Virus record (IMG/VR): IMGVR_UViG_3300031949_000013
Coordinates: 1 to 64,000 of that record
DNA length: 64,000 nt
Source: a virus
Reading direction: 5' to 3' (one strand)
The translations under genes and the position numbers were made by a program. The notes under the pieces are model-generated. The model was given only the letters and a program-made list of their open reading frames with translations. It was not told the DNA's origin and made no database searches. Every line of letters begins with the position of its first letter. The stretch's first letter is position 1. Below are positions 797 through 59,118 of this stretch, piece after piece.

Positions 797-2053
797 TCAA
801 GTGGCGGCACAAGTGAGAAACCGCTGCACTTCGGCTCTTACACCATCGGAGTCATTATTGAAAGCGGATTCCCACACAACCAGACAATCAAAACCCGCTT
901 CCTTGTAGGCTTCGACAAGCTCCGACTCATGGTCGAAATTTGCCCTACCTGTGAACATTCGAGAATGCCAGAAGTCGCCGAAGACCTCCACCACCTTGGT
1001 TACGCCCTTCTTGGGATGCTTCGGATCTGGACCAGGCAGGATGAAATCAGGGTTCTTGTGATGCCCAAGCTTTGAAAGCCATCGCCAGAACGAACCATTG
1101 CCTGTGTAGAGGAGTTCAGAATTGAGAGAGGAGAAACGCCGTTCTAGAAGGTTCATTTGTCTCTTGCCGCCCGCACTGATTAGGGCCTTGTAGGCAATCT
1201 CAGGCACCATCATGGGATGGGGAACACCATACTCCCGAATGAAGATTTCCCGTAGTCGTTGCTTGCCTATCTCAGAGGCAAAGAAGTGGTTTCCATAGTT
1301 GGCAACCATCGTCTCAAGTTGGACTCTCCGAAGAAATGGGCTCTGCCCAGTCCAGTCAACGCCCCAACGTTCCAGATTGGTCTGACGAGCCCGCTCAACA
1401 ACCTGAGGTGAATTAGCTGGGGCCGGACCTCCATAGCGATCTTGGTTGGTTGTAGCGATTTTCTCTCGAATGTGGGGGGAAGCCAGCATCTCTTCAGACC
1501 CATAACGTTCAAGATTGGTGGCCTGAGTCTTGGCTCGAACTTGTGTATTCTGACTCGGATTCTCCGCACCATAACGAGCCCGGTTAGTTTGACGGATTTT
1601 CTCTTGGACTTCGGGCCAAGAGAAAGGATTGTCTGCACCTGTCAGCACTACGTGAGAAGCATCTGAAGCTTCTCGTACCTTGCTATAGAGGGTGGAACCC
1701 TTGGAGAAAGGATTCTCAGCCCCGAACCGCTCCAGGTTCGTTGCTCGAACCTTGTCCCGCACAGCCTCGATGTGCATGGGGTGGGACACATCCTCCCCAT
1801 ACTTGGTTTGAAGAGTGTTTGCCAGACGGGCCATCTGGACTTCTCCTCGGTCACGAGCCTTCCAGACCGTGCAGGTAGCCCGATGACGCTTCATCTGCGT
1901 TTCAGAGGTGCTCTCATGACCACAGAGGCACGCTAGAGGCTTCTTGGAACCACCTAGCTCAGCCTGCCATCCCACACAGACAGCCTTGTGCCTGGCGTTG
2001 ATAGCGTCCGATTTGGGGAAGTGAGCTTGACAGTAAGGACAAGTGACAGGCAT
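797..2053 (-). CDS. Putative homing endonuclease: Zn fingers, TNLERYG-type repeats, C-terminal Vsr-like PD-(D/E)XK nuclease
   Basis: CPYC..H..C and CLCG..H..C at N-terminus; repeated TNxxR(Y/F/W)G..NP units; C-terminal NPDF...VVEVFGDFWH. Start taken at MPVTCPYC (2053). Confidence 0.7.
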   Translation of the reverse strand: MPVTCPYCQAHFPKSDAINARHKAVCVGWQAELGGSKKPLACLCGHESTSETQMKRHRATCTVWKARDRGEVQMARLANTLQTKYGEDVSHPMHIEAVRDKVRATNLERFGAENPFSKGSTLYSKVREASDASHVVLTGADNPFSWPEVQEKIRQTNRARYGAENPSQNTQVRAKTQATNLERYGSEEMLASPHIREKIATTNQDRYGGPAPANSPQVVERARQTNLERWGVDWTGQSPFLRRVQLETMVANYGNHFFASEIGKQRLREIFIREYGVPHPMMVPEIAYKALISAGGKRQMNLLERRFSSLNSELLYTGNGSFWRWLSKLGHHKNPDFILPGPDPKHPKKGVTKVVEVFGDFWHSRMFTGRANFDHESELVEAYKEAGFDCLVVWESAFNNDSDGVRAEVQRFLTCAAT

Positions 2054-2073
2054 TCCGCCAGCATGTAAAGGGT

Positions 2074-2964
2074 TCAAAATCCCACGAATTTTGCAGGAGT
2101 TAAAATTCCAGCCCCGGTGTACGGGCCGAAAGCACTCCGAATACCAATCCCAAATTTGGGTTGTTGAAGACCCTTGACGATCTTCACTGTCTGCTTGGCA
2201 CGTTCGAGCTGCTCTGTCCAGTTATCCTTGATGGCCTGGTAGGCAGATTCGTACTTGCTTGACTTCTCAATGGTGAGACTCACCCCGCCGATGCTGTAGT
2301 CAAACTCGTCGGCAATCCAGTTGAGCATCACAGCAAAGAGAGCGTGCATCATCGCTCCGTTCAAGAGCAACGTCCGCCACTCTGGACGGCTCTGAACGAA
2401 CTGATCCAGGTTCACGAACGGAGTCCTCGGTGGAGCTGCAATCACCTGGTCAAGGGCACGCTGAAGGTACTCGTCCAGTTCGTCGTCTTCCCAAATGAAT
2501 CCAAACACCCGGTTGAACTGCTGGACCGTCTCTTCGTGAGCCGGAGGACGAAAGTGGTAATTCCGATCTGGCTTGTTGTCCCGCAGAAGGATTCGAAGGC
2601 GACGAACCAAATCCGACTCCACGTCCGTGTAGAGCATCGTCTGGAGCGTCGCCTTGTCGATGACGTCAAACTCCTGGACTACCTGCTGAATCGGTCCGGA
2701 GACCGTCTCCCGGAAAGTCCAGCGGACCCTGTAGCTGCCCAGGTTGGCATCCAGAGGGACCACCACGCTGGCGTAGTATTCTCCTACCGAGGGGTTCGAG
2801 GGCACACGAACGGGTGAACCAAGAAGCACCTCCATCCCTGTTGAGAAATCATACAGGGCATAGGTGATCTCAGCCGCGTTTGTCGGCGTGTTGTTGGAGT
2901 TTTCCAGGAAGATGTTCAGATCTTCCCGGCCCAACTGTTGTCCTCGGTAGAAGCTAACAGGCAT
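2074..2964 (-). CDS. Putative neck/head-tail connector protein with N-terminal Ig-like domain
   Basis: 296 aa. N-terminal beta-rich domain shared with 3342..4070; C-terminal helical part with LRILLRD..WEDDEL..YSIGGVSLT pattern typical of myovirus neck proteins; late-module position. Confidence 0.55.
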   Translation of the reverse strand: MPVSFYRGQQLGREDLNIFLENSNNTPTNAAEITYALYDFSTGMEVLLGSPVRVPSNPSVGEYYASVVVPLDANLGSYRVRWTFRETVSGPIQQVVQEFDVIDKATLQTMLYTDVESDLVRRLRILLRDNKPDRNYHFRPPAHEETVQQFNRVFGFIWEDDELDEYLQRALDQVIAAPPRTPFVNLDQFVQSRPEWRTLLLNGAMMHALFAVMLNWIADEFDYSIGGVSLTIEKSSKYESAYQAIKDNWTEQLERAKQTVKIVKGLQQPKFGIGIRSAFGPYTGAGILTPAKFVGF

Positions 2965-8217: not shown

Positions 8218-8294
8218 CCTGGTTCTCCTACCTGGGGTAGTGATCTCTGCTAGATTTCGAGGGTAAACTTAGTCCCTACGGCCTTACCGGAGCC

Positions 8295-8304
8295 ATAAAA
8301 GGAA
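8295..8304 (-). promoter_or_regulatory. Candidate late-promoter motif TTCCTTTTAT
   Basis: Identical 10-mer at 19080..19089 and one-mismatch copy at 38623..38632, all intergenic upstream of structural genes. Confidence 0.55.
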
Positions 8305-14961: not shown

Positions 14962-15141
14962 TCAAAACAATGATCGCTTGCAGGTCGGGCACTTTGGAAT
15001 CGGCTTCTTCTGATGGAGCTTACAGTAGCCGTCTCTCCAAGCCATGTTCTTGCATCTACCTGGAAACCACCGGTCTTTCCGCTGAACTTTGCAACGAGCT
15101 TTCTCATGCCCTGGGTTCAGCCACCATCTGCCCTTATTCAT
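14962..15141 (-). CDS. 59-aa Cys/His zinc-finger protein (below ORF-track cutoff)
   Basis: Hand translation: MNKGRWWLNPGHEKARCKVQRKDRWFPGRCKNMAWRDGYCKLHQKKPIPKCPTCKRSLF; ATGA overlap with upstream stop; fills the gap exactly. Confidence 0.6.
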   Translation of the reverse strand: MNKGRWWLNPGHEKARCKVQRKDRWFPGRCKNMAWRDGYCKLHQKKPIPKCPTCKRSLF

Positions 15142-16067
15142 GCAACGGGTCTCCCTACCAGCCGAGGATGATCGATCCCGTATCGTTTGAGGAACCGATC
15201 CACCGTTGTGGGTGCCTCACCAAGCATCTTAGCCATACGTCGAATGGGGATTCCTTGTGAGGCCATCTCTTTCAGGATCTTCTCCGAAAGCTTCTGTCGA
15301 AGCTGATATTGAGGCCCCAGGAATCCGAACTCCAGCTTGTGAGTCATACAGTCTGGCATGTGTGGACGAACCAGTGAGATGAAGCGTTCGGCTTGATCTT
15401 CACCATCGAGAATGAACTCGCCCGTCTTACCTTTCCGCAAAGTCCACCTGGGACTGAAACCAAACTTCTCGAAAATGGCCAGAGCAACACCACGACTAGC
15501 GAGATCCATCCCAAAGGCGAACATGGGCCACCATTGAGCACAACCATCGTCCATAAACCAGATAGCAAGGGCGAGTGGATCTACGAGATCCACCACTCGA
15601 TTCTGTAGCCGCTTGGGGCCTGGTTCTGGATAGAACAGAGCGTGCCAGGGAAGCAGAGTAGCATGGGAAACTGTTTCAAAACGCCACCCAGGGAATTCCC
15701 GCCACTGTGTCGGGCTGATCGGAGTCTTTACCCAAGATCCCCACTCAGAGGCTTTCCACAGAAGGTAGGTCTTCTGCGCATCCGAATGATTCTCCATGTA
15801 ACGGGCCACGTGGATACTCTTGGAAAGCCTACCGTCCCCAAGCATGGATCCCACTAGAACTGACTGTAGTCGGCCCTCTATGGGGATTACCTCGTGGCGT
15901 TCTGTTCGACAGATGGTCTCTATCCCAAAGCGACGTCTCCAAGACCTCACCCGTTTGACAGTTGCTTCCCCTTTGAGCCTCAAGACAATCTGCTCATCTG
16001 TGAGTAAATCCTCAGCATAAAGTCGTCGAAGATCCTCCTGGGAGATAGGACACGGTACAGCTTTCAT
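15138..16067 (-). CDS. Free-standing LAGLIDADG homing endonuclease with terminal HTH domains
   Basis: VLVGSMLGDG and LALAIWFMDDG motifs; HTH-like segments at both ends. Confidence 0.85.
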   Translation of the reverse strand: MKAVPCPISQEDLRRLYAEDLLTDEQIVLRLKGEATVKRVRSWRRRFGIETICRTERHEVIPIEGRLQSVLVGSMLGDGRLSKSIHVARYMENHSDAQKTYLLWKASEWGSWVKTPISPTQWREFPGWRFETVSHATLLPWHALFYPEPGPKRLQNRVVDLVDPLALAIWFMDDGCAQWWPMFAFGMDLASRGVALAIFEKFGFSPRWTLRKGKTGEFILDGEDQAERFISLVRPHMPDCMTHKLEFGFLGPQYQLRQKLSEKILKEMASQGIPIRRMAKMLGEAPTTVDRFLKRYGIDHPRLVGRPVA

Positions 16068-19046: not shown

Positions 19047-19079
19047 GGTGGATCAGCCTTTCCTGCTCAAAAGGGGACT

Positions 19080-19089
19080 ATAAAAGGAA
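19080..19089 (-). promoter_or_regulatory. Candidate late-promoter motif TTCCTTTTAT
   Basis: Immediately after the protease stop, 33 nt before the scaffold ATG. Confidence 0.55.
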
Positions 19090-35130: not shown

Positions 35131-37401
35131 TCATCTCTCGGGGCGGCTATAGTTCGGGTCCGGCCGGTAGTTGTGCGTCGTGTAATCGTACCTGATGTAC
35201 TGGGTGTCGTGATGCTCGTACATCTCGCTCTTGTTCGGGAGATCCCTGTCGTAGTTGTACGGGTTGACGGGATCTGCGGGTAACTCGGACTGGGCGATCA
35301 TCTCGTCGCTCAATCCCTCTGTGTAGTAGTCTGATCGAGCTACCGGCTCCTCGACATCGATCGGCATCACACTGTTCTGCGACCGCACGTTCGTCCGCTC
35401 GTTCAAACTGACATCGACACTTGGAGTGTTGTCCTCCGTGAATCCTCCAGGATCACTCGGGAGCCCACTCGTCGGGCCGTACACGCCTTTCGTTCCGGAT
35501 CCCTCGCCAGAAGGATTGCCATAACCTCCTGCGCCCTCACCCTCAGCCCCGCCTTCGGCCCCATAACCCAAGCCAAAATCCCAGGCATCCGCAGGTGGAT
35601 CCAAGTCCTCGGGCAACCCCGAGGTGGCCTTCCGAGCTAAGAGATTGTGTTTCTTCATCAGGATAGCGTCGTTGACGTCTGACTTGTCCAAATGAAGCCG
35701 ACGACCCATAGGAGACTTCAAGATACGATCCTCGGTCCAGCCCTTATCGAGCAGCTCGTTGACCGTTCGATAGTTATCTAGCGAGAGGAGCGGACCCCCA
35801 CTCGGACGAGGAGTATCCAGCGGCGGAAACTTCATAGGTCCAGGCCAATCCCCACGACCCGCTTCACGAGTGTCGTTCTCCCAGGGAGTCCGATAGATGT
35901 AGTCATCCTCTCCACCATCGGAGAGCCCCCACTCATCGGTTACCCTAGGTTCATCCTCGTTATAGCTATCCAGAGGACCACGGTCTTCTGCCCGGTCCAA
36001 ATGATCCACCCGAGGACCAGGGAGAGAGTCCGGAGACACAGAGGAGTTACCACGGAAGTAACTGTAGGACGCCATCTTGGCGTGCATCTCTGGAGAGAAC
36101 TTTTGATCCTGCACCATCTCCGGAGCGAACTTGAGCTTCTTCTTGGGCTTCTTGAGCTTCTTCTTGGGCTTGCCCAACTGCTCAGGACGGGGTTCCTCCG
36201 AACCAGGAAGACCAGATGATTCCAAAGCTTGCTCGGCTGTGGCTTCGTCTTCCTCATCAAATTCGACAGGCGGCTTGTCCTCGTCTTCTTCTTCGCCCTC
36301 GGGAGCTTCTTCCTCGGCCGGAGCTTCTTCCTCGGCCGGAGCTTCTTCGCCTTCAGAAGTCTCAAAAGGATTCTCAGAGCCTTCTTCTTCGGTTCCTGGC
36401 TCCTCACGAGAGTAACTCTCTTCTTCTTCCTCAGCCGGAACTTCTTCTTCCTCGGCCGGAGCTTCTTCTTCACCTTCCGGAGCTTCTTCTTCCTCAGCCG
36501 GAACTTCTTCTTCCTCAGCCGGAACTTCTTCTTCACCTTCCGGAGGTGCTTCCTCTTCTCCGAGAGGTACTTCCTCTTCGCCCTCGGGAGCTTCTCCGAG
36601 AGGTGCTTCCTCTTCGTCTTCACCAAGCGGGATTTCTTCCTCATCCTCGCCCGATGAGACTTCTTCGTCGTCAGCTCCAAGAGGCGCTTCCTCGCCAAGA
36701 GCTTCCCCAAGCTGTTCTTCCCCAGGCTGTTCTTCACCCGGAGCTTCTAGGTCCACACTCTCCTCGGCTGCGGCATCGGCTGCGGCGTCCTCAATGGCTT
36801 CCATGTCTCCTTCGGCCTCTGCCTCAGGGTCTTGGAGGATCTGTTGCGACTCCTGGAGGAACTTCCGAACATCCATGGCATCTGCGGGATCAAGCTGGTT
36901 GAGCTTGGGCTCCCAATGAGGAGCGTTGATCTCGTCGTGGATGCTGTCCGAGATCGCACTGAGATTCTCACAAGCGTCGTGGAGCTTGTCTCGAATCTCC
37001 TTCACCTTCATCACATAGCCTCGACCACCAAGCATCCCGTCCGGGGAGATGGTTGAAGACTTGAGCCTGGCGAACTGACGGTAGGCTGTCAATCCATGGC
37101 CAAGGGCCACACTCATAGCCCAGAGCATTCGGGAAAGCGGCTTGAGTGCTCTTGGATCATAGGGATGATCCTTCGGGATGTTCCGCTTGCCAGGACCACC
37201 TTGGTCACCACCAGGAAGAGCAGAGACCCCCATGACTGCCGTCCCCTCCGAATCCCCTGTCGGCTCATCATTGCCGAAAGGCGGGGGTCCAGCAGCTATC
37301 TTCTCTAGCACATACCACCTCTTGTAGACCCTGGCTCGAAGGCGTTCCTCCGGAGTCAAGGCCAACAAAGTCATATCTACCTTTGTGTGGAGGTTGATCA
37401 T
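35131..37401 (-). CDS. Highly acidic low-complexity virion-associated protein
   Basis: 756 aa, EEE(V/A)P(A/E/L) repeats; the start may instead be the downstream MTLLAL. Confidence 0.65.
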   Translation of the reverse strand: MINLHTKVDMTLLALTPEERLRARVYKRWYVLEKIAAGPPPFGNDEPTGDSEGTAVMGVSALPGGDQGGPGKRNIPKDHPYDPRALKPLSRMLWAMSVALGHGLTAYRQFARLKSSTISPDGMLGGRGYVMKVKEIRDKLHDACENLSAISDSIHDEINAPHWEPKLNQLDPADAMDVRKFLQESQQILQDPEAEAEGDMEAIEDAAADAAAEESVDLEAPGEEQPGEEQLGEALGEEAPLGADDEEVSSGEDEEEIPLGEDEEEAPLGEAPEGEEEVPLGEEEAPPEGEEEVPAEEEEVPAEEEEAPEGEEEAPAEEEEVPAEEEEESYSREEPGTEEEGSENPFETSEGEEAPAEEEAPAEEEAPEGEEEDEDKPPVEFDEEDEATAEQALESSGLPGSEEPRPEQLGKPKKKLKKPKKKLKFAPEMVQDQKFSPEMHAKMASYSYFRGNSSVSPDSLPGPRVDHLDRAEDRGPLDSYNEDEPRVTDEWGLSDGGEDDYIYRTPWENDTREAGRGDWPGPMKFPPLDTPRPSGGPLLSLDNYRTVNELLDKGWTEDRILKSPMGRRLHLDKSDVNDAILMKKHNLLARKATSGLPEDLDPPADAWDFGLGYGAEGGAEGEGAGGYGNPSGEGSGTKGVYGPTSGLPSDPGGFTEDNTPSVDVSLNERTNVRSQNSVMPIDVEEPVARSDYYTEGLSDEMIAQSELPADPVNPYNYDRDLPNKSEMYEHHDTQYIRYDYTTHNYRPDPNYSRPER
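36285..36730. repeat. Degenerate 18/21-bp tandem repeats encoding Glu-rich tract
   Basis: Recurrent cggagcttcttcctcggc / ggaacttcttcttcctcagcc units. Confidence 0.8.
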
Positions 37402-38599: not shown

Positions 38600-38632
38600 C
38601 GGCTCCTCAAACAGGAGGGCCGATAAAAGAAA
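38600..38632 (-). promoter_or_regulatory. Candidate late promoter TTTCTTTTAT plus SD-hiding hairpin
   Basis: Motif at 38623..38632; mRNA CGG-CC-CUCCU/AGGAG-CCG pairs with the SD of 38594. Confidence 0.55.
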
Positions 38633-38666: not shown

Positions 38667-39308
38667 TCAAACACAGGCATCCCCACCCCGATTGCTCCAC
38701 TGAGGCAGTTTCACTTCCCGGAGAATGTTGAACTTCTTGGAAGCAATAGTCGAGAAGATTTTACGGTAGGGCATGTACTTCCCGTTCAGATCCGCCGCAT
38801 CCTCGATGACCTTTACGGCCTTGAAAAACCGGTGACGTACCCGGCCTTGTGTCAAGCCCAACTTCGAGGCGACTTCGGATTGGCAGGTGGTCTGCCACAT
38901 GCCAATTAGGATATCCACGTCGATCTGCTGGGGCAGGATCTCCGGGAGATCCGCTCGTAAGTCGTCCTCGGTGACCTCCGGGATGCTGAGCAAGAACTTG
39001 ATTCGCTGAAGACTACGATCCAGGCGGTAGCTGATGGCCGCCTGTGTAACCTCGAAGATGGCCGCGATGTCCGCCTGACGCTTCTTCAAGATGTAGTAGA
39101 GGTAGATGAGATCCGCCTCTCGTTCCGGGATACGATCCAACAGGGTTTCCACCCTGGCTTCGTATCCCTCTGGTAAGTCCCCCTCCTCATCGAATTCCTC
39201 ATACGCATCGACTGCCAGCTCATCGAGCTGAAAATCCAGGCCATCCTCTCCAGAGAAGCGATTGGCCAGTTCTGAGGGGTCTACTGGGATCACATACCCA
39301 ATACTCAT
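38667..39308 (-). CDS. Sigma-70 region-4-like protein with two HTH units
   Basis: LLDRIPEREADLIYLYY...RQADIAAIFEVTQAAISYRLDR and a second unit QSEVASKLGLTQGRVRHR; no recognisable region 2. Confidence 0.7.
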   Translation of the reverse strand: MSIGYVIPVDPSELANRFSGEDGLDFQLDELAVDAYEEFDEEGDLPEGYEARVETLLDRIPEREADLIYLYYILKKRQADIAAIFEVTQAAISYRLDRSLQRIKFLLSIPEVTEDDLRADLPEILPQQIDVDILIGMWQTTCQSEVASKLGLTQGRVRHRFFKAVKVIEDAADLNGKYMPYRKIFSTIASKKFNILREVKLPQWSNRGGDACV

Positions 39309-41149
39309 AGTGTCAATCCGGTGGCTATCTCCGAAGAACGCTCAAAGAACGTCTCCAGAATCGAGTTGGGGTTAATCTCGACCGCTCTCAAAAGAGCAGC
39401 TACTTCATCTGGATTTGAATCTGGATCGATCTTCGTGAATGGGACATCTCTCAAGGTCATCAGGTCCACGTTGATACGCACTTGGGGTTCGGCCGAACGG
39501 AGCCTCTCATACTGTACCTTGGTCAAACCGGTGAGGCCAGATCGATACAGAGCCTCTACCGTACCGTGAGCTTGAACCAGAGCCCTGAGAATCTTCTTTG
39601 GGACTCGGGGCACGCCCGGAAGGTTGTCCGAGCTATCCCCAGTGAGAGCCCGGAGCTGTACCATGTCCGTAGGCTTCACACCATAATGCTCTTCTACCGC
39701 TTCCGGGTCAAACAGCAACTCTTTTCTACTACCGATGGCTGGAATGAGGACGGAGACGTTCTCGGAGACGACCTGAAGGAAATCCCTGTCCGTGCCGAAA
39801 ATGACTGTTTTCTGGCTGGAAAGCTTCTTCCGAACGAGAGTTGCGATGACGTCATCAGCCTCCTCATTAGGGTTGAATACCTGGTAAACCCCAAGACAAG
39901 GCAAAATCTTCCGAAGATAGCCCATCTGATCGAAGATCGGAGTGCCGGCTCTCGAAGGACGATTGGCCTTATATTCCGGATACTTGTCCTTCCTACGACG
40001 CGATGAGCCATCCCAAGAAACATAGAGGGCGGATGTGTTGAATCTCTTCCGAAGCGCTCCCAGGCTCCGGAGAAAGCCTAGAATGACTCCCGTCGGGCGT
40101 CCTTGACTATCCGCAAGTTCGGACATCCCAGGGGCGTACAGGCACCGAAAGGCAAGGTTGTGACCATCGACGATGATGTTTTGAGGCATTTTTCCGGCTC
40201 CTGCTCTCCGACGAGTCGCCTTCTTCCGCAGCAACTCGTTCATCTCTGCTCTGATCTGTCTACCCCGTCCGAGGACATCCTCGAACCAAGCCAACTCCAG
40301 CATTCCGCTCTCGATGACCATCCCGATCGCGGGATCCTCGATCCGCTTGTCCGCTTTGATGAATCTGGAAGTCGGGGCAGCGGCCATCAGCCACCCGGAT
40401 AATCGCTCTATCTCGGCGACTCTGCTTGGGAAATTCCACTTTTCCAGAGGATGATCGAAGAATCGGATGAAGGAGTAGGTCCGACTCCCATGGGTGTTCC
40501 AGTGGTTGAGCTGCTTGAGGCCCTGGTAACTATGGAGCACTGTGTCAAAGCCATTCTGCCAGGAAAACACAGGGTCGCTGCCCTGGACCCAGACTCGAAG
40601 CTGACCCAGACGGGCTAGAAGCGGGGAGAGCGGGCTTCGGGTGCTGACCTGGAGGAACGACCTCGGAAGGGTGATGATGGTCTGCTTCGACCGAAGCTTA
40701 ATGTAGACCTGGACGGCATCCTGCTCCGGGATCTCCTCGATGACCATGGCCTCGATGTGCTTGAAGTGGCCAGAAGTGATGACCACTGTATCCCCGACAC
40801 CGATCCCCTGATTGACCTCCAGATCGATCTGGCTGCGAATCTGGTCGATATGAGCGTCGGGTACCGTGGCCAGGACTCGATACCGAGACCCGTTGGTCTT
40901 GGTCAACACCGTATGGACGAACCGAGTGCCCTCCAGTTTGAAGTAGGCGGTGTCCGGAAGGGTCTTTCGAATGAAAGCGTACCCCTCCATCAGATAGTGG
41001 ATGACGCGATCCCCACCTACTTGGGTCACGGCAGCCGGGATGAAAACTTCGCCCGGTTGTTTCAGCGATTGGAGGATGCCCGCCTTGAGAGCATCAGGGT
41101 CCTCCCCCTCGCTTTTCGGACTGAGTTCAAGGACAACCCACTCGCTCAT
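39305..41149 (-). CDS. NusG-like (NGN+KOW) domain fused to 5'-3' exonuclease/flap endonuclease
   Basis: N-terminus WVVL..EVFIP..LMEGYAFI..GDTVVITSGHF..V.E; C-terminus IVDGHNL, YKANR, EADDVIATL, DRDFLQ, GDSSDNLPGV; single uninterrupted ORF. Confidence 0.85.
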   Translation of the reverse strand: MSEWVVLELSPKSEGEDPDALKAGILQSLKQPGEVFIPAAVTQVGGDRVIHYLMEGYAFIRKTLPDTAYFKLEGTRFVHTVLTKTNGSRYRVLATVPDAHIDQIRSQIDLEVNQGIGVGDTVVITSGHFKHIEAMVIEEIPEQDAVQVYIKLRSKQTIITLPRSFLQVSTRSPLSPLLARLGQLRVWVQGSDPVFSWQNGFDTVLHSYQGLKQLNHWNTHGSRTYSFIRFFDHPLEKWNFPSRVAEIERLSGWLMAAAPTSRFIKADKRIEDPAIGMVIESGMLELAWFEDVLGRGRQIRAEMNELLRKKATRRRAGAGKMPQNIIVDGHNLAFRCLYAPGMSELADSQGRPTGVILGFLRSLGALRKRFNTSALYVSWDGSSRRRKDKYPEYKANRPSRAGTPIFDQMGYLRKILPCLGVYQVFNPNEEADDVIATLVRKKLSSQKTVIFGTDRDFLQVVSENVSVLIPAIGSRKELLFDPEAVEEHYGVKPTDMVQLRALTGDSSDNLPGVPRVPKKILRALVQAHGTVEALYRSGLTGLTKVQYERLRSAEPQVRINVDLMTLRDVPFTKIDPDSNPDEVAALLRAVEINPNSILETFFERSSEIATGLTL

Positions 41150-41158
41150 TTTGTAACA

Positions 41159-42544
41159 CTACCCCCGCCAGGATCGCTCGAAGGCTCGTTTCCAGTCGCC
41201 AGGCGGCAGCACCTTCTCCTCCTTCGAGGCTGTCACCACTCGCTTGTCCCCTTCCTCATGCCCCCTCGGGTGATCCTTGGGAACACCAAACTCGTCTACG
41301 GTTGTGAGAGCCATCGGGTCAGTTCCCAGATTTCCAGCTTTCCCATTGGTCACGGGAGGTGTTGGGGCAGGGACTTGAGGGGATGGTATTGGAGGGGGCG
41401 TAGGCTTGGATGCCGCGATTGGTATTGTTGGAGCTGATACTGGTGATACTGGGTTTGGAGAGGAATGTAGTTGCAATTGTGGGGTTTGGGCAACAGGAAT
41501 TTGTTGAGGAAGTTCCATCGTGGTGGTCAAGGCCACCACATCGCAGATGAGCCCTACCTTCGTTCGTGCCTGAGCAGATAGGAATTTGCGGGTATAACCG
41601 ACGATCGAGGGTCCGTATTTCTTGTACAGCTCCTCTGCCTTCGCCCTGTCCACATAGGTGAACTCGGCAAACATTTTGTTGGCGAGACGGTAGGTGTTCA
41701 TGGCCGCTTCGGCCAATCCAACCGAAACCTCCTCGGCACCCACCTGATCACAAGCGTCCTCGATCAAGGGGAGGGACTTCGTGGGGTCGTCGAGGGACAA
41801 CAGAATTTCGTAGTAGGTCGTGGTCAGTCCAAGCCCCAGATAGTCCCGAACGGCTTCAACCGAGACCACACCAGCCTGCGAAATCATCTCCAGCCGATTC
41901 ATGATGTCCCGAACATGCCCTCCAGAGCTGTCGATGACCGTGAACAAGGCATCTTCCTCGTATTCGACCTGTTCAGCTTGAAGGATTTGCTTCAATCTTT
42001 CGGCTATATGTTCCCGAGTTATCTTGCGAATCCGGTGCTCCTCACATCGTGAACGAATCGCCCCCCGGATCTTGTCCGGCTCGGTCGTGCAAAAAATGCC
42101 GACCATGTCCTTCTCCTCGATGGGCTTGAGGAGAACATCCTGGGCTGCATTGCTCATCCGATGAGCTTCGTCGAAGAGGTGGATTTGCTTGACGGCTCCC
42201 GGCACAACAAAAGGCAAATCATCCACGATCTGCCGGATGATGGCAACAGTCCCTTGACTGGCGGCATCCCGCTCATGAAAGGCCAAGGAGGTGTCGCTCA
42301 AGATCGCTTGACAGTTCTCGCACTTGTTGCAGGGCTCCTGATCATCGGTCAGATGCTCGCACAGCATTGCTCTGGCCAGAACACGAGCCAGGGTCGTCTT
42401 GCCCTGGCCGTGTCCTCCGGAGAAGATGTACGAGGAATCGAGAGCCGTGCCAAGGCGGATCCTGGTCTTCAAGACCTGGACGGCGCCTTCTTGCCCAAGC
42501 ACATCCGTGAAGTTCTTGGGCCTATAACGGATATCCCACATCAC
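41159..42544 (-). CDS. dnaX: DNA polymerase III gamma/tau clamp-loader ATPase
   Basis: RYRPKNF.DVLGQ, GGHGQGKTT, C..PCNKCENC, DEAH, IRSRC, G.VRD. Confidence 0.92.
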   Translation of the reverse strand: MMWDIRYRPKNFTDVLGQEGAVQVLKTRIRLGTALDSSYIFSGGHGQGKTTLARVLARAMLCEHLTDDQEPCNKCENCQAILSDTSLAFHERDAASQGTVAIIRQIVDDLPFVVPGAVKQIHLFDEAHRMSNAAQDVLLKPIEEKDMVGIFCTTEPDKIRGAIRSRCEEHRIRKITREHIAERLKQILQAEQVEYEEDALFTVIDSSGGHVRDIMNRLEMISQAGVVSVEAVRDYLGLGLTTTYYEILLSLDDPTKSLPLIEDACDQVGAEEVSVGLAEAAMNTYRLANKMFAEFTYVDRAKAEELYKKYGPSIVGYTRKFLSAQARTKVGLICDVVALTTTMELPQQIPVAQTPQLQLHSSPNPVSPVSAPTIPIAASKPTPPPIPSPQVPAPTPPVTNGKAGNLGTDPMALTTVDEFGVPKDHPRGHEEGDKRVVTASKEEKVLPPGDWKRAFERSWRG

Positions 42545-44868: not shown

Positions 44869-45548
44869 CAGGCGCTCCTCAATTCCAAATACCTAAAGCC
44901 CGCCTCTTCCACGACAACCTCCGAGCAACGATAAGCCCGATTAGCATGATCCAGGAACGACTGCTTATGGGTCACGAGCAGGACATCGATCTTCATAGAC
45001 TCCGCAAGCTGCTGGAGGAAGCTGCCGGTGGCGTCCACGTAGTCGTCGGAGACCGAAGCCAACGTCTCATCGAGCAACAACAACGGGCGACGCTTGAGCC
45101 GGAGCAGAGCCATCATGCGAAGGATCAGGTCGGCCACAGCCGAAGGTCCACCACCAAAGGAGTCCAGGGGTTTTCCCCGGATGGCCAACGGGTCATCGGC
45201 AGCCCCTTGACGAAACAGGAAGTCCACCGAGACCTTATTGTACTTTGGGGAGATTTCAGCCTCAAAGCCCAGACCCAGGTCGAAGAAGATCGTGTTGAGA
45301 CCTTCCGTGACTACTCCCTCGATAGTCCGCACCTGCTTGACCACGAGCTGATCGAGCAGAGCACGAAAGAGTTCACTCACCTTGGTGAGCTTCTCGACCC
45401 GCACCGTGAGCTGGCTGACCTCAGCTTCCTTGGCAGCCAGCTCAAAGGTCATCCTATCCCGAAGCGTGGCGATTCGAATGGACGACTCCTCCACTGCTCG
45501 AACGCGATGGATCAGGTCATCGATGGGATGAACCGAGTCACTTGACAT
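44868..45548 (-). CDS. SbcC/Rad50 C-terminal half (ABC signature, Walker B, H-loop)
   Basis: SFGGG signature, LLLLDE, VLLVTHK; no Walker A. Confidence 0.85.
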   Translation of the reverse strand: MSSDSVHPIDDLIHRVRAVEESSIRIATLRDRMTFELAAKEAEVSQLTVRVEKLTKVSELFRALLDQLVVKQVRTIEGVVTEGLNTIFFDLGLGFEAEISPKYNKVSVDFLFRQGAADDPLAIRGKPLDSFGGGPSAVADLILRMMALLRLKRRPLLLLDETLASVSDDYVDATGSFLQQLAESMKIDVLLVTHKQSFLDHANRAYRCSEVVVEEAGFRYLELRSA

Positions 45549-46753
45549 TTGATACCGCCTTCTGGACCCGGGAGTACCTTACCAGCGGGATCCATGTAGA
45601 ACGGGTCGATGACGCGGAAATAGTAGCTTTCCTTGCGCTTATCGGTGGCCGGAGCGATTCTAACTCCGATCGGAGTCTGCTTACAATCCAAAGAACTCAC
45701 CATCTCCAGGAAGTGCTTGATGCTGACGTTGGTAGCAAAGCTCCTCGTCTTGGCTTCCTCGGTCATCGGGATCACCGTGACGTAGGGACTCTTGACAGTG
45801 CCGGTGGGCTCCTGGAACAAGAACTGGAGCTGCCACTTATCGGGGGCCGCCTCGTAGATGATTCGAACACGCTCCTTGTTCTTGTCCCCCGCTTCAAGCG
45901 CTTCTTTCATGTACCGCAACTGCCGGATGAGGAAATCCGTATCGACGAGAAGCCGAATCGACTCCTCTGGGTAGTAGGCATACCTGGGATGATTCTTGGT
46001 GTGGTGCGTCCAGCCGAACATCTGACCCTTGGTGTTGGTCAGGAAGGTCCAGTTGTCTCCAGTTCGCAGGATCACAGAACCCTCGCTCTTGGAGAGGAAG
46101 CTGAGCACCTGGGGCAAGTGGTTACCGTGAAGAGCCAAGCCCTTACCCTTGAAGGCATCGCAGTAGAAGTACGAGCCCCGCCGACCGTCTGCGGCGAACA
46201 GAGTGCCGTCACCAGGCGCCCACTCGGGCTTGCTGGTGTCGAAAATCTGGATGGTCTTGAGGTACTCATCGACCTTCTGATTGTCGAGAGACACCAGGCT
46301 GCCCCTGACAGTCTCGATGGCCCGCTTGAGCAAAGCGGCCGGCATCTCAATGTCCGACTCCGAGGGCTCGGGATCCTCGACAGGTCGGATTGCCTGAGAG
46401 TCAAAAGACGGACGCTCGCACACGTTCCCCGAGGCAGTCTCATAGTTCACGTAGAAACTGCCCTCTCGTTCCCCTGCCTCGAAGTTGAGGATCTCCTCGG
46501 GAGCGACGTGCTTGAAAACGTTGCTGAAGGCTCCAGGATAGATAAAGGTCCCCTCACCCTCGACGTTCGTAATCGCCAGGACCGCTCGGGCGATGTGTGT
46601 CTTGTCCTGGGAGTAGACGTAGCAGCTCTGGTCCCCACGGATGACAAACAAGTAGCCTGCCCCGCCTTGTTTCGTGACTTCCTGGGGAGGGACAATCCCC
46701 ACAACATCGAGGGCCTGAACGATGTCAGACGCCTGAACACTGAACTTGATCAT
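45512..46753 (-). CDS. dnaN: DNA polymerase III beta sliding clamp
   Basis: MIKFSV...L..V, EGEG, AALLKRAIETV, LFAADGRR, YP, three-domain length; clamp loader genes nearby. Confidence 0.75.
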   Translation of the reverse strand: MIKFSVQASDIVQALDVVGIVPPQEVTKQGGAGYLFVIRGDQSCYVYSQDKTHIARAVLAITNVEGEGTFIYPGAFSNVFKHVAPEEILNFEAGEREGSFYVNYETASGNVCERPSFDSQAIRPVEDPEPSESDIEMPAALLKRAIETVRGSLVSLDNQKVDEYLKTIQIFDTSKPEWAPGDGTLFAADGRRGSYFYCDAFKGKGLALHGNHLPQVLSFLSKSEGSVILRTGDNWTFLTNTKGQMFGWTHHTKNHPRYAYYPEESIRLLVDTDFLIRQLRYMKEALEAGDKNKERVRIIYEAAPDKWQLQFLFQEPTGTVKSPYVTVIPMTEEAKTRSFATNVSIKHFLEMVSSLDCKQTPIGVRIAPATDKRKESYYFRVIDPFYMDPAGKVLPGPEGGIKCQVTRFIPSMT

Positions 46754-56180: not shown

Positions 56181-56437
56181 CAGGGAAATCCTCGCCAGGT
56201 AGCAAGAGACAGCATCGCTTCATGGGTTGTACCCTCAGTCTCCAAAGCACTGCTGTAGACCACTTGAAGTGCGGTCACGATAAAACTACTGGCGAGACTG
56301 CCACGGATACAGTAATCCAACACCTCCAAAATCTCGATAGCCCAGGGAGGGTCTGACCACTTCTCAATAAGAGGCTTCAGCGACACATCGAGTTGCGTCG
56401 TAGAGGACCCCAAGAGAAGATCACGGAGTTCGTTCAT
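56180..56437 (-). CDS. Hypothetical protein
   Basis: 85-aa ORF coupled by overlaps on both sides. Confidence 0.55.
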   Translation of the reverse strand: MNELRDLLLGSSTTQLDVSLKPLIEKWSDPPWAIEILEVLDYCIRGSLASSFIVTALQVVYSSALETEGTTHEAMLSLATWRGFP

Positions 56438-57216
56438 TCCTCAACCATTCTGAGGAAGTCTTCTTCGGAGAGGCACACCGTTCCGTTCTTGCGAGCTGCA
56501 ACAGCTTTCGAGCTGGTGGAGTTGGGGTCGGCGATCACGAGGTACGAGAGTCCTTTACCGACGGATCCTTTCACTCCACCGCCGGCCGCCACAACCATTG
56601 CCTCCAAGTCACCTCGCTTCCGGACCATGCTCCCAGTGAAGCAGAAGGACTTCCCGGTGAGTGAACCTACGATCACGTCCTTGATCCGGACCCCCAGACC
56701 ATGAAGCTCCTTGACCTGGCCGGCGTGATGCTGAAGCCAATTGGCCAGCGTCCGGGACTTCACCGGGCCGAGACCCGGAACCTTGCTCAGGGCAACGGCG
56801 TCGAGATTGCTCAACTTGGCCCAGGAATCATGGCCAGCATCCATGACCATCCGGATCGTTGAGGCTGCACAGCCTGGAATCGACAAGGCGCCCAGAAGGC
56901 TCTCCATCGGGATGGGGTTCTTAGCCCAGAGAATCTTGAGCAACTTGTCGGCCACGTGATCAGAAATTCGGTCCACTTCAGCCAGGGCCGGGATGGTAAG
57001 CTTGTAGAGATCGGGAACGGCCTTCACCTTACCCGAGGTGACCAGCTTTTCGATGAGAACTTCGCCCCATTCCTTGATGTCCAGGGACTTGATGTACCGC
57101 TCGATGCGTCCGACCGCCTGAGCAGAGCAATCAGCCGTGTTCGGGCAGATGAGGTACTCACCCTCCATCTCGGTCTCGGAGCCACAGACGGGGCACTGAG
57201 GGGGCGGGATCACCAT
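56434..57216 (-). CDS. ligA: NAD+-dependent DNA ligase, C-terminal fragment (Zn finger, HhH, BRCT)
   Basis: CPVCG..CPN..CSAQ, LSIPG, VPGLG, FCFTGS, SVGK, SSKAVAA. Confidence 0.88.
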   Translation of the reverse strand: MVIPPPQCPVCGSETEMEGEYLICPNTADCSAQAVGRIERYIKSLDIKEWGEVLIEKLVTSGKVKAVPDLYKLTIPALAEVDRISDHVADKLLKILWAKNPIPMESLLGALSIPGCAASTIRMVMDAGHDSWAKLSNLDAVALSKVPGLGPVKSRTLANWLQHHAGQVKELHGLGVRIKDVIVGSLTGKSFCFTGSMVRKRGDLEAMVVAAGGGVKGSVGKGLSYLVIADPNSTSSKAVAARKNGTVCLSEEDFLRMVEE

Positions 57217-57995
57217 TGGTACACCTGGCCTGTGGGGTAGCAGTCAGGATCGTTTGGATCTACCCAAGGCTTTCCAGGGCCTCTCCAGGGACGAATACCC
57301 ACTTGCATCTCCATGCCCTCCAAAGCTGTGGCATTCACCCAATTGGCATTCCACCCATGCCTATGCACGTAGTCATTGAGGGCATCCCGTTTAGCCGCAA
57401 TCTTGGGCCAGGCCCACTTGAAGTCTGGCTTCACCTCCCAAAGCTCGTGAATGTTGCCGAGGAGGACCACCAGGAAGTCAGGCCAATAGTTTCGTTTCGC
57501 TCCGTCGAACAGGTACGGGATAGAAAGTGGTTCCACCTCGTAACGTAGAACGTGAGGGTGGAGGTCCAATACCTTTGCCACTCGCAGTTCCCACGATGAG
57601 CGCACCCACTGCTCTCCGAGAGACTTTGGGCTCGTTATCCAGCATCCCCGACCTATCCCACGAAGGCGCCCATCCCCCCAAGCACGAGTGACACCTTCGG
57701 AGATTCTACTTCTTACTTCGGGCGTTCGCTCATACTTCCCCGCGACGCCCACACCTTTTCCGGAGCGAGCCGCCGACATCTTCTGTATTGCCTCGGGGGT
57801 ATGACCCACCCCACGAGTAGGATTGTGCTCTTGCATGAAGTTAGACTGCTTCAGTCGCATCTCGTCTGACTTGAGGTGAGCAAGGCCAAAACGGGATTTG
57901 AACTCAGCAGCCGTAGAAAACCCATGTTTGCGGATGTGGTCCGTCGTAATGAACTCAGTGACCACATGGCACACGGGGCAGGTCAACTTAGCCAT
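57210..57995 (-). mobile_element. Free-standing endonuclease (Zn finger, NUMOD3-like repeats, TnsA-like PD-(D/E)XK) inserted in ligase
   Basis: Start MAKLTCPVC (57995) with SD GGAGG; HTPEAIQKMS, RSSWE, YWPDF, EVKP. Confidence 0.8.
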
Positions 57996-59118
57996 TGACC
58001 CTCCCAAGAATCTTGGGGATGACATCACCCCCACGAGCCAGTATGACTTGGCAGCCGATCTCCAGCCGGTGCTTCCGAATAAAAGCCACGTTGTACAATG
58101 AGGCGTGGTCAATAGTTGCGCCAAGGAGATTTACTGGATCTACTACGGCCACTGGAGTAATCCGGCCTGAAGCCCCTACTTGCCACTCCACGGCTCTGAG
58201 AGTGGTAACTCGGGTAATAGGAGCGAACTTGAAGGCTACCGCCCCAAGTGGCCGACCATCCTTCTCCCCGAGGAAAAGTTGGAGATCAAGACGATTGATC
58301 CTGATCACTAGACCATCTATGTCGTAGTCGAGGGAATCTCGGATGCTCTCCTGGTACTGTAGCCAGATCTGAGTGATAGCCGCCACACTGGAGACAGTTC
58401 CGTAGTTCGGGACTTTGAAGCCCTGTGCTTTCAGCCATTCGAACTGAGCAAGCTCAGTACCGTGGCTGTGTGCCGTGGCATGGATCACATCACTCTCCAA
58501 GACGGAGTAGGTGATGACCGACAGGTGCTCCGAGCCTTTTCCGTCGTAGCGTTTGGAGACACCGGCTGCGGTGTTCCTGGTGTTGGCCTTATCAGGGAAG
58601 TGCTTGGCGAAGTCACTCTTGAACAGAACGATCTCCCCTCGGATGGATCCAGAGAAGCCTGGCACCTCCTGAACGAGACCCTTCATCTTCCGGACGTTCG
58701 GAGTGATGTCCTCGCCAACCAACCCGTCCCCACGGGTGAGAGCTTGAACGAACTTCCCCTCCTCATACCGGAGATGGATCGAGATACCATCGAGCTTCTC
58801 GGTCCAGAGCAAATGTTCCCAGGAAGGGTCCGTGACCGGAAGACCCGTCCCCTCTACCCATCGAAGAAGCTCTTCGGGGAGGTTCACCTTGTCCAGGGAA
58901 CCCATTGGCACTCCGTGGCTGACCTTGACCCATTCCGAAACCGCTGAAGCCCCGATAGCCTTGATCTCGGGAGAGTCCGGACGAAGCATTCGCAGCCGAT
59001 CCCGGGAGGCATCATAGACCTCGTCTGGAACCAACGAAATCCCCCGCTCGTAGGCCACTCGCCACTCGGCGAGCTTCACTTCCAGCTCGTCAGCTTCCTC
59101 TTCGTCGAATACAAACAT
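57988..59118 (-). CDS. ligA: NAD+-dependent DNA ligase, N-terminal fragment (adenylation and OB domains)
   Basis: MGSLDK, EKLDG, TRGDG..GEDIT, RNTAAG, DIDGLV, GRITP, GDVIP. Confidence 0.92.
   Translation of the reverse strand: MFVFDEEEADELEVKLAEWRVAYERGISLVPDEVYDASRDRLRMLRPDSPEIKAIGASAVSEWVKVSHGVPMGSLDKVNLPEELLRWVEGTGLPVTDPSWEHLLWTEKLDGISIHLRYEEGKFVQALTRGDGLVGEDITPNVRKMKGLVQEVPGFSGSIRGEIVLFKSDFAKHFPDKANTRNTAAGVSKRYDGKGSEHLSVITYSVLESDVIHATAHSHGTELAQFEWLKAQGFKVPNYGTVSSVAAITQIWLQYQESIRDSLDYDIDGLVIRINRLDLQLFLGEKDGRPLGAVAFKFAPITRVTTLRAVEWQVGASGRITPVAVVDPVNLLGATIDHASLYNVAFIRKHRLEIGCQVILARGGDVIPKILGRVNG

What the first reader, a model, noticed from the sequence alone, without database searches (positions are those of the whole stretch)
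38667..41149. NusG-flap endonuclease fusion plus tandem sigma4 protein at the replication/late boundary: candidate replication-coupled late transcription system
Seen: one 614-aa ORF joins a complete NusG-type NGN+KOW module (about residues 1-170), a ~150-aa helical linker and an intact PolA-type 5'-3' exonuclease. An in-frame ATG at 40189 (M321, MPQNIIVDG) has its own AGGAG, so both the fusion and a stand-alone nuclease may be made. The next gene has two sigma-region-4-like HTH units and no region 2, and the 38-kb co-oriented virion block starts right after it. Known: NusG paralogs (RfaH, LoaP) act as antiterminators on long operons, and T4 couples late transcription to replication through its clamp. 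Inference: this phage may tether an RNAP-binding elongation factor to nicked or Okazaki-fragment DNA to license late expression. I do not know of a described NusG-FEN fusion.
Basis: partly seen in the sequence, partly recalled or inferred. Interest (0 to 1): 0.85.

Follow-up and report, generated by a model that had tools for sequence, protein, structure and literature searches.

The report
Phage NusG-like factor fused to flap nuclease
A fragment of a very large uncultured phage carries one gene that joins a copy of NusG (the factor that rides on RNA polymerase) to the phage's only DNA flap nuclease; the join is real and shared by dozens of related phages, but comparison suggests it was added later to an older pair of transcription factors and is not clearly a replication-to-late-gene switch.

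Summary
Every observation was confirmed. ORF 39305-41149 (-) encodes 614 aa: NGN plus KOW (profile vs T. maritima NusG, E 3e-11; KOW Z 11.2), four ~35-aa Trp-bearing helical repeats, and a PolA-type 5' nuclease (Z 28 to M. smegmatis FenA, acidic residues invariant). The next gene holds two homologous sigma-region-4 domains and no region 2. Virion genes follow.

New here:
- The order dnaX, NusG-like, FEN, sigma4 is kept in about 100 huge-phage loci (contigs to 529 kb).
- NusG-like and FEN are fused in about 58 of 61 crown-clade loci. They are separate genes in three crown lineages and in two distant clades.
- One 485-kb relative keeps the NusG-like/sigma4 pair with no FEN at all.
- M321 is a conserved internal start: ATG or GTG in 18 of 22 loci, with Shine-Dalgarno-like runs in 17 of 22. 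Free nuclease is therefore probably made too.
- A conserved promoter-like motif, GGTTTCTTTTAT, starts the late block right after sigma4.

Reading: a phage NusG paralogue plus a tandem-sigma4 partner act on host RNA polymerase, and the FEN fusion is secondary. T4-like replication licensing is possible but has no support. The scan noted this fusion earlier in three other genomes. I found no paper describing it.

The parts
39305..41149 (-). 614-aa fused ORF: NusG-like module, helical repeats, 5'-3' exonuclease/FEN
40814..41149 (-). NGN domain (residues 1-112)
   Evidence: Profile vs NusG, E 3e-11. VIA: RfaH NGN Z 9.4, NusG NGN Z 8.2. G56, Y57 and F59 are invariant or nearly so.
40634..40813 (-). 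KOW domain (residues 113-172), predicted as a five-stranded beta barrel
   Evidence: Model strands 121-170. T. maritima NusG KOW Z 11.2, rmsd 1.3 A, 29% identity. Pfam KOW in 25 of 53 homologues.
40214..40633 (-). Helical region (residues 173-312): about four ~35-aa repeats, each with a conserved Trp; no known family
   Evidence: Helices 175-312. hhalign repeat 2 vs repeat 3: 97%, E 2e-11. Stays with the NusG-like half in split relatives.
40187..40213 (-). Basic/Gly junction holding AGGAG (40202-40198) and the in-frame ATG of M321 (40189-40187): conserved internal translation start
39308..40189 (-). PolA-type 5'-3' exonuclease / flap endonuclease domain (residues 321-614)
   Evidence: Pfam above cut-offs. 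FenA Z 28.1. Invariant D328, D380, E429, E430, D432, D433, D454, D456, D505, D508. One FEN per complete relative.
38667..39308 (-). 213-aa tandem sigma-region-4 protein, translationally coupled to the fused gene (ATGA overlap)
39255..39299 (-). Conserved N-terminal peptide of the sigma4 protein (GYVIPVDPxELANRF), followed by an acidic disordered spacer; partner unknown
   Evidence: Alignment A2; low pLDDT for residues 19-43.
38621..38632 (-). Promoter-like motif TTTCTTTTATCG, 38 nt before the first gene of the late block, followed by a hairpin over the ribosome-binding site
41159..42544 (-). DnaX-like clamp-loader gene, always directly upstream (context)

Best explanation
This is a two-in-one gene of a huge phage (complete relatives are 411-529 kb). 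The N-terminal NGN+KOW module is a phage-specific NusG paralogue. With the tandem sigma-region-4 protein encoded next to it, it forms an old, conserved pair of transcription factors. These most likely act on the host RNA polymerase. They are made at the end of the replication-gene transcription unit, just before the first late (virion) promoter. The paralogue probably takes the NusG site on elongating polymerase and keeps it processive and Rho-resistant over the few, very long late operons, as RfaH, LoaP, UpxY and ActX do for long operons of other mobile DNA. In the crown clade this factor gained a Trp-rich helical repeat and became fused to the neighbouring gene for the phage's only flap endonuclease. 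The gene then yields two products: a roughly 68-kDa NusG-helical-FEN protein, and a roughly 33-kDa free FEN from the conserved internal start at M321 for ordinary Okazaki-primer removal. The fused form would hold part of the nuclease pool on transcribing polymerase. The most plausible use is removing RNA:DNA hybrids or transcript-derived primers where replication and transcription meet on a co-oriented genome. Shown: the anatomy, the conservation of the fusion, the conserved internal start, the split and FEN-less relatives, the sigma4 duplication and the position before a conserved promoter-like motif. Inferred: binding to host RNA polymerase, specificity for late operons, and any role of the tether.
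For: NGN+KOW identity. Active-looking FEN. Fusion kept in more than 120 protein clusters at 90% identity, 52 of the best 150 representatives at 50% identity, and about 58 of 61 crown-clade loci. Synteny dnaX, NusG-like, FEN, sigma4, Ig-like gene is kept. Internal start: ATG in 13 and GTG in 5 of 22 distinct fused loci, at the position where free-standing FEN genes start; Shine-Dalgarno-like run in 17 of 22 against 22% at control codons; M or V in 95 of 118 homologues. Core pair without FEN in LR745208.1. A relative's NusG-like module is fused instead to a complete sigma factor (P0196), which links this family to initiation factors. Complete relatives show no Rpb1-type polymerase domain, so host polymerase is the likely target. 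One FEN per complete genome. The late motif occurs only 2-5 times per 400-kb genome, which implies long operons.
Against: No experiment or read data bears on RNA polymerase binding or on which products are made. The window protein alone misses Pfam's NusG cut-off, and none of the named NusG subfamilies is matched above its cut-off. Very divergent phage polymerases of the phiKZ type would escape the Pfam search. Recurrent splitting at the junction (L111, L112, L187) and the FEN-less relative fit a fusion with no coupling role at all. Nothing ties the factor specifically to late rather than all phage transcription. The statistics for the internal start are not corrected for shared ancestry.
Confidence: 0.5

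Rival explanations
1. Neutral or merely economical fusion. NusG-like and FEN were adjacent, translationally coupled genes. Loss of one stop codon merged them, and both halves work independently. The link is tolerated but does nothing.
For: Both genes are separate in the outer clades (L115-L118, L238-L243), and the ORF has re-split at the same junction at least three times in the crown clade. The internal start is maintained, so free FEN is still needed. The NusG-like/sigma4 pair exists without FEN. The same NusG-like family is also found fused to another neighbour type, a sigma factor.
Against: The fusion has persisted in about 95% of crown-clade loci across divergence down to 38% identity. 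It arose together with a dedicated helical repeat domain that carries nearly invariant Trp residues. The adjacency itself is conserved in every clade that has the FEN.
Confidence: 0.28
2. One reading: T4-like replication-coupled late transcription. The FEN domain (or a clamp bound to it) marks nicked or Okazaki-fragment DNA. The tethered NGN module and the sigma4 protein then license RNA polymerase on replicating DNA. In this scheme NGN takes the place of gp55 on the clamp helices, and sigma4 takes the place of gp33 on the flap.
For: The genes sit at the replication/late boundary, directly before a conserved late-type motif. The sigma4 protein lacks region 2, and NGN binds the same polymerase site as sigma region 2 (established knowledge of NusG/RfaH). 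The phage has its own clamp loader and a probable divergent clamp at 45512-46753. The sigma4 protein carries a conserved terminal peptide on an acidic spacer, typical of a docking motif.
Against: The NusG-like/sigma4 pair is kept in a relative with no FEN and in clades where FEN is a separate protein. NusG-family factors load on elongating polymerase, not on promoters (established knowledge). The conserved C-terminal ILxxFF helix of the FEN is part of the nuclease fold, not a free clamp-binding tail. No clamp-binding motif was identified.
Confidence: 0.12
3. The NGN-KOW module no longer works on RNA polymerase. It has been taken over as an adaptor within the replisome, or as an RNA 5'-end torpedo device in which the nuclease degrades nascent RNA.
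For: The gene sits inside a replication operon next to dnaX. FEN-superfamily folds include Xrn1/Rat1, which appear among the structural matches. KOW domains bind many partners.
Against: The NGN core motif (G56, Y57, F59) and the whole NusG architecture are conserved. The constant partner is a sigma-type DNA-binding protein, and one relative is fused to a full sigma factor. The nuclease is a DNA-type PolA 5' nuclease with an H3TH-like element, closest to FenA and ExoIX rather than to Xrn.
Confidence: 0.07

Closest known systems
Specialised NusG paralogues of mobile or horizontally acquired DNA (RfaH, LoaP, UpxY, ActX/TaA)
   Same: Two-domain NGN+KOW architecture. Encoded by the element whose long operons it would serve. 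Weak but consistent profile matches to nusG, UpxY, LoaP and RfaH models.
   Different: All matches fall far below those families' cut-offs. The KOW is predicted as a beta barrel, with no sign of an RfaH-type helical state. It carries a C-terminal Trp-rich helical repeat and a whole nuclease. It is phage-encoded. No recruitment site is known; the leader hairpins after the late motif are only a candidate.
Stand-alone PolA-type 5' nucleases (M. smegmatis FenA, E. coli ExoIX/Xni, T5 D15, T4 RNase H)
   Same: Same fold (Z 19-28) with the full set of conserved acidic residues. It is the only such gene in each complete relative, so it is presumably the Okazaki-primer nuclease.
   Different: Here it is translated as the C-terminal third of a NusG-like protein as well as, probably, on its own. 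The H3TH loop reads GVPRVPKK instead of the usual GVxGIGxKTA (the usual form is from memory).
T4 late transcription machinery (gp55, gp33, gp45 clamp)
   Same: Concept only: small phage factors that replace parts of sigma on host polymerase, encoded among replication genes, with late genes downstream.
   Different: No homology to gp55 or gp33. No clamp link was shown. The core pair also exists in a relative without the nuclease.
Archaeal Spt5-FttA and eukaryotic Spt5-Xrn2 partnerships
   Same: A nuclease brought to the elongation complex through a NusG/Spt5-family factor (PMC11616081 abstract for FttA).
   Different: Those are non-covalent partnerships, use RNA nucleases and serve termination. 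Here a DNA-type flap nuclease is covalently fused.

Membership tests
NusG/Spt5 family | NGN domain | tested here: met
   Profile A3 vs T. maritima NusG, residues 3-163, E 3e-11. The fold matches RfaH NGN (Z 9.4) and NusG NGN (Z 8.2). The window protein alone scores 17.7 bits, below Pfam's 22.2 cut-off.
NusG/Spt5 family | KOW domain after the NGN | tested here: met
   Z 11.2, rmsd 1.3 A to T. maritima NusG KOW. Pfam KOW in 25 of 53 homologues.
NusG/Spt5 family | Binds the clamp helices of elongating RNA polymerase | not testable with these tools
RfaH (also LoaP, UpxY) subfamilies | Score above the curated equivalog or subfamily cut-off | tested here: not met
   RfaH 24 bits vs 144.5; LoaP 23 vs 125; UpxY 25 vs 100; nusG 34 vs 135.7.
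RfaH | Alpha-helical, autoinhibitory state of the KOW domain | tested here: inconclusive
   AlphaFold predicts a beta barrel; a single prediction cannot exclude fold switching.
PolA-type 5'-3' exonuclease / FEN | N-terminal resolvase-like and C-terminal H3TH/SAM domains above the Pfam cut-offs | tested here: met
   118.4 bits vs 34.3, and 49.2 bits vs 40.
PolA-type 5'-3' exonuclease / FEN | Conserved acidic metal-binding residues | tested here: met
   Ten acidic positions are invariant in 53 homologues. Their assignment to the two metal sites rests on general knowledge of the family.
Sigma-70 family (for the 213-aa neighbour) | Region 4 | tested here: met
   44.6 bits vs 24.1. Present twice. 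The fold matches region 4 of SigD, SigF and SigE, TM about 0.8 over 57 residues.
Sigma-70 family (for the 213-aa neighbour) | Region 2 (core binding, -10 recognition) | tested here: not met
   No region 2 in the protein or in the 94-kb record. It is therefore not a sigma factor in the strict sense.
T4-type clamp-coupled late transcription | A factor that binds the sliding clamp | not tested
The one candidate motif was rejected as part of the FEN fold.

The most novel reading that the evidence does not exclude
The triad is a split, replication-aware substitute for sigma. The NGN module occupies the clamp-helix site that sigma region 2 (or T4 gp55) uses. The tandem sigma4 protein takes the flap and reads the GGTTTCTTTTAT element. 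The fused flap nuclease, alone or through the phage's divergent clamp, restricts this complex to replicating phage DNA. That would make a NusG-family protein part of a promoter-specific initiation device, and it would be a non-T4 solution to replication-coupled late transcription.
Probability: 0.1. Interest if true: 0.9.

Novelty: new variant of a known kind. Interest (0 to 1): 0.6.

Why it matters
NusG/Spt5 is the only transcription factor family shared by all cellular life. Its specialised paralogues are known from chromosomes and plasmids, but the papers I searched describe no phage-encoded one. Here a whole clade of 400-500-kb phages carries such a paralogue with a constant sigma4-type partner. 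Most of them weld it to the replisome's flap nuclease. If the tether is functional, it is a natural, ready-made probe of how transcription and replication are coordinated on one template. If it is not, the family still offers a new phage route to controlling host RNA polymerase, and a clean case of a gene with a conserved internal start that gives two products. Both readings can be tested with recombinant proteins.

Tried and rejected
- Clamp-binding tail on the FEN: the conserved C-terminal ILxxFF(G) looked like a PIP or beta-clamp motif. It forms helix 595-602, which aligns with the end of the FenA fold, so I dropped it.
- Phage clamp: Pfam DnaN domains were not found in the record or in five complete relatives. 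A 393-aa ORF next to delta' is not a clamp. The 413-aa ORF 45512-46753 gives only weak clamp signals.
- The genome-contig scan returned only bacterial PolA 5' nuclease domains and no fusion.
- An apparent triple fusion with sigma4 in L091 was an artefact of my script; a stop codon separates the genes. L176 was likewise misclassified as split and is fused.
- Sigma-70 promoter and intrinsic terminator scans around the genes were at chance level.
- The strict late motif is rare (2-5 copies per 400 kb), so it is not a high-copy late promoter.
- The genomic context of the sigma::NusG-like fusion P0196 could not be fetched.
- Foldseek on the 614-aa model listed only FEN folds.
As a result there was no co-fold, no read-level check and no expression evidence.
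- Literature searches for a NusG-nuclease fusion or a phage NusG found nothing relevant.
Full report
**What is there.**
All long ORFs of the window lie on the minus strand. ORF 39305-41149 encodes 614 aa. ORF 38667-39308 encodes 213 aa and overlaps it by ATGA. The record is a 94-kb fragment that CheckV rates about 20% complete. Complete relatives with terminal repeats are 411-529 kb, so this is a piece of a huge phage.

**The fused protein.**
- Pfam places a PolA-type 5' nuclease at residues 325-570, well above cut-off. It gives only a sub-threshold NusG match at 3-105.
- Family information settles the N-terminus. A profile of 53 full-length homologues hits T. maritima NusG (E 7e-8).
- A profile of the N-terminal module alone hits the same protein over its whole length (E 3e-11). 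Every one of its 26 PDB hits is NusG, Spt5 or ribosomal L24.
- The AlphaFold model (pLDDT 82.8) shows four parts: an NGN fold (1-112), a five-stranded KOW barrel (121-170), four long helices (175-312) and the nuclease (324-602).
- An exhaustive structural comparison gives FenA Z 28.1, NusG KOW Z 11.2 (rmsd 1.3 A), Spt5 Z 10.7, A. aeolicus NusG Z 10.2 and RfaH NGN Z 9.4.
- Ten acidic positions of the nuclease are invariant, so it looks active.
- The helical part is built of ~35-aa repeats with a conserved Trp (hhalign 97%, E 2e-11 between repeats 2 and 3). It has no known relatives.
- NCBIfam models for nusG, UpxY, LoaP and RfaH all match weakly and far below their cut-offs. It is a NusG-family protein but belongs to none of the named subfamilies.

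**The neighbour.**
- The 213-aa protein has a strong sigma region 4 match and a second, partial one.
- Its two halves are homologous (hhalign 96%, E 3e-9).
- The model matches solved region-4 domains at TM about 0.8.
- There is no region 2 in the protein or in the 94-kb record.
- The family has a conserved N-terminal peptide (GYVIPVDPxELANRF) on an acidic, disordered spacer, and a conserved C-terminus.
- Look-alike clusters are almost all viral.

**Context.**
- Upstream lie Pol III delta and delta', ribonucleotide reductase, an NAD ligase split by an endonuclease gene, RecD2, RecA, SbcCD-like proteins, a PD-(D/E)XK nuclease, primase and DnaX.
- Downstream lie the terminase large subunit, portal, protease and major head protein.
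- Thirty-five nucleotides after the sigma4 stop lies TTTCTTTTATCG. Two more copies precede late genes at 19089 and 8304. No copy lies on the other strand or in the replication half.
- The same motif, with small variants, sits 23-42 nt before the homologous first late gene in more than 20 relatives that share no other non-coding similarity. It is usually followed by a hairpin over the ribosome-binding site whose sequence differs between phages.
- The motif occurs only 2-5 times per 400-kb genome, which points to a few very long late operons.

**Comparative evidence on the fusion.**
- More than 120 protein clusters at 90% identity are full-length fusions of 584-661 aa. Fifty-two of the best 150 representatives at 50% identity are fusions.
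- In IMG/VR the order g205, primase, metallopeptidase-like gene, dnaX, NusG-like, FEN, sigma4, Ig-like gene is kept throughout.
- A search anchored on sigma4 gave 66 distinct loci. About 58 are fused. Three crown-clade lineages are split at the same junction: L111, L112 and L187. In these the helical repeats stay with the NusG-like half.
- A distant clade, L238-L243, has three separate genes. A second distant group, L115-L118, is also split. L120 is fused with almost no linker.
- On a tree of the FEN domain, the crown clade (support 100/99) holds 28 fused and 2 nested split rows, and its deepest branch is fused. The outer rows are split. The fusion therefore most likely arose once at the base of the crown clade, together with the helical repeats, and was undone a few times.
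- GenBank LR745208.1, a 485-kb uncultured phage, has dnaX, a 207-aa NusG-like gene and the sigma4 gene side by side. It has no FEN there or anywhere else.
- One representative, P0196, joins a complete sigma factor (regions 2 and 4) to this NusG-like module. Its genomic context could not be retrieved.

**The internal start.**
- In the window, AGGAG, 8 nt and then ATG encode M321.
- Among 22 distinct fused loci the aligned codon is ATG in 13 and GTG in 5, although GTG is only a third of Val codons.
- A Shine-Dalgarno-like purine run lies 5-16 nt upstream in 17 of 22, against 22% at control codons of the same ORFs (p about 6e-8, uncorrected for ancestry).
- In 118 homologous proteins the residue is M (44) or V (51), within an otherwise unconserved Gly/basic stretch.
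- The position is exactly where free-standing FEN genes start in split relatives. Free nuclease is thus very likely made alongside the fusion.

**Interpretation.**
The conserved core is the NusG-like factor plus the tandem sigma4 protein. Complete relatives show no Rpb1-type polymerase domain, so host polymerase is the probable target. Some relatives have ordinary sigma genes elsewhere, and one complete genome has none recognisable. By analogy with RfaH, LoaP, UpxY and ActX, which serve long operons of acquired DNA (knowledge summarised in PMC7819879), I read the NusG-like module as a phage processivity and anti-Rho factor. It is placed to act at the switch to the long virion operons.

Each complete relative has a single FEN, so this is the replisome's primer-removal nuclease. 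Its fusion to the transcription factor is secondary. The fusion may tether nuclease to polymerase to clear hybrids or transcript primers on a co-oriented, heavily transcribed and replicating genome. It may equally be a tolerated merger of coupled genes. It is weakened by the split and FEN-less relatives, and nothing found here links the FEN to a clamp.

**Novelty and prior notes.**
Searches of the paper library found no NusG-nuclease fusion and no phage-encoded NusG paralogue. A dedicated NusG review mentions neither. IMG's automatic names ("5'-3' exonuclease/transcription antitermination factor NusG") show that the architecture sits unremarked in databases. This scan had already noted the same fusion in three other genomes, with one follow-up reaching a similar verdict.

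**Limits.**
The host is unknown. All functional statements are inferences.

Noticed in passing
window 38621-38632, 19078-19089, 8293-8304 (- strand); L084-L113 upstream of the Ig-like gene: The promoter-like motif GGTTTYCTTTTAT lies before late genes. It is conserved in more than 20 related huge phages. It is usually followed by a hairpin over the ribosome-binding site whose sequence varies between phages, which looks like covariation. It could be the late promoter plus a leader element that recruits the NusG-like factor.
   Followed up: partly
window 56434-59118 (-): The NAD-dependent DNA ligase is encoded in two pieces: adenylation+OB at 57988-59118 and Zn-finger/HhH/BRCT at 56434-57216. A TnsA-like endonuclease ORF (57210-58124) separates them.
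   Followed up: no
window 45512-46753 (-): This 413-aa ORF has no Pfam hit but gives weak matches to a phage processivity factor family (phrog_947, E 0.0025) and to T. maritima Pol III beta (E 0.12). It is probably a very divergent sliding clamp.
   Followed up: partly
protein P0196 (from; context unknown): This 541-aa protein joins a complete sigma factor (region 2 E 4e-10, region 4 E 2.5e-8) to the same NusG-like NGN-KOW module (E 2e-39). It is another fusion partner for this family.
   Followed up: partly
L166 3161-5047 (GenBank LR745208.1): The DnaX of this 485-kb relative is 628 aa, with an insertion after the Walker B region that looks like an intein (begins CFTED..., ends ...VSNCH). I did not verify this.
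   Followed up: no
A2 alignment, rows L104, L108, L109: Some sigma4 homologues carry a CPxC...CPxC zinc-ribbon-like insertion between the two region-4 domains.
   Followed up: no
window 35131-37401 (-): This 756-aa protein has a long acidic EEEAP/EEEVP repeat region and no family match. Only its residues about 70-190 are conserved in relatives.
   Followed up: no
window 15138-16067 and 797-2077 (-): Homing-endonuclease-like ORFs (LAGLIDADG/HNH types) are embedded in the virion block, one of them directly after the major head protein gene.
   Followed up: no
G000 64-74 kb (L164): Beyond the window, the record encodes a Cpn60-type chaperonin, an RtcB RNA ligase, a VWA protein, an Rv2179c-like 3'-5' exoribonuclease and an HNH endonuclease. 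A third sigma-region-4 match lies at 80649-80762.
   Followed up: no
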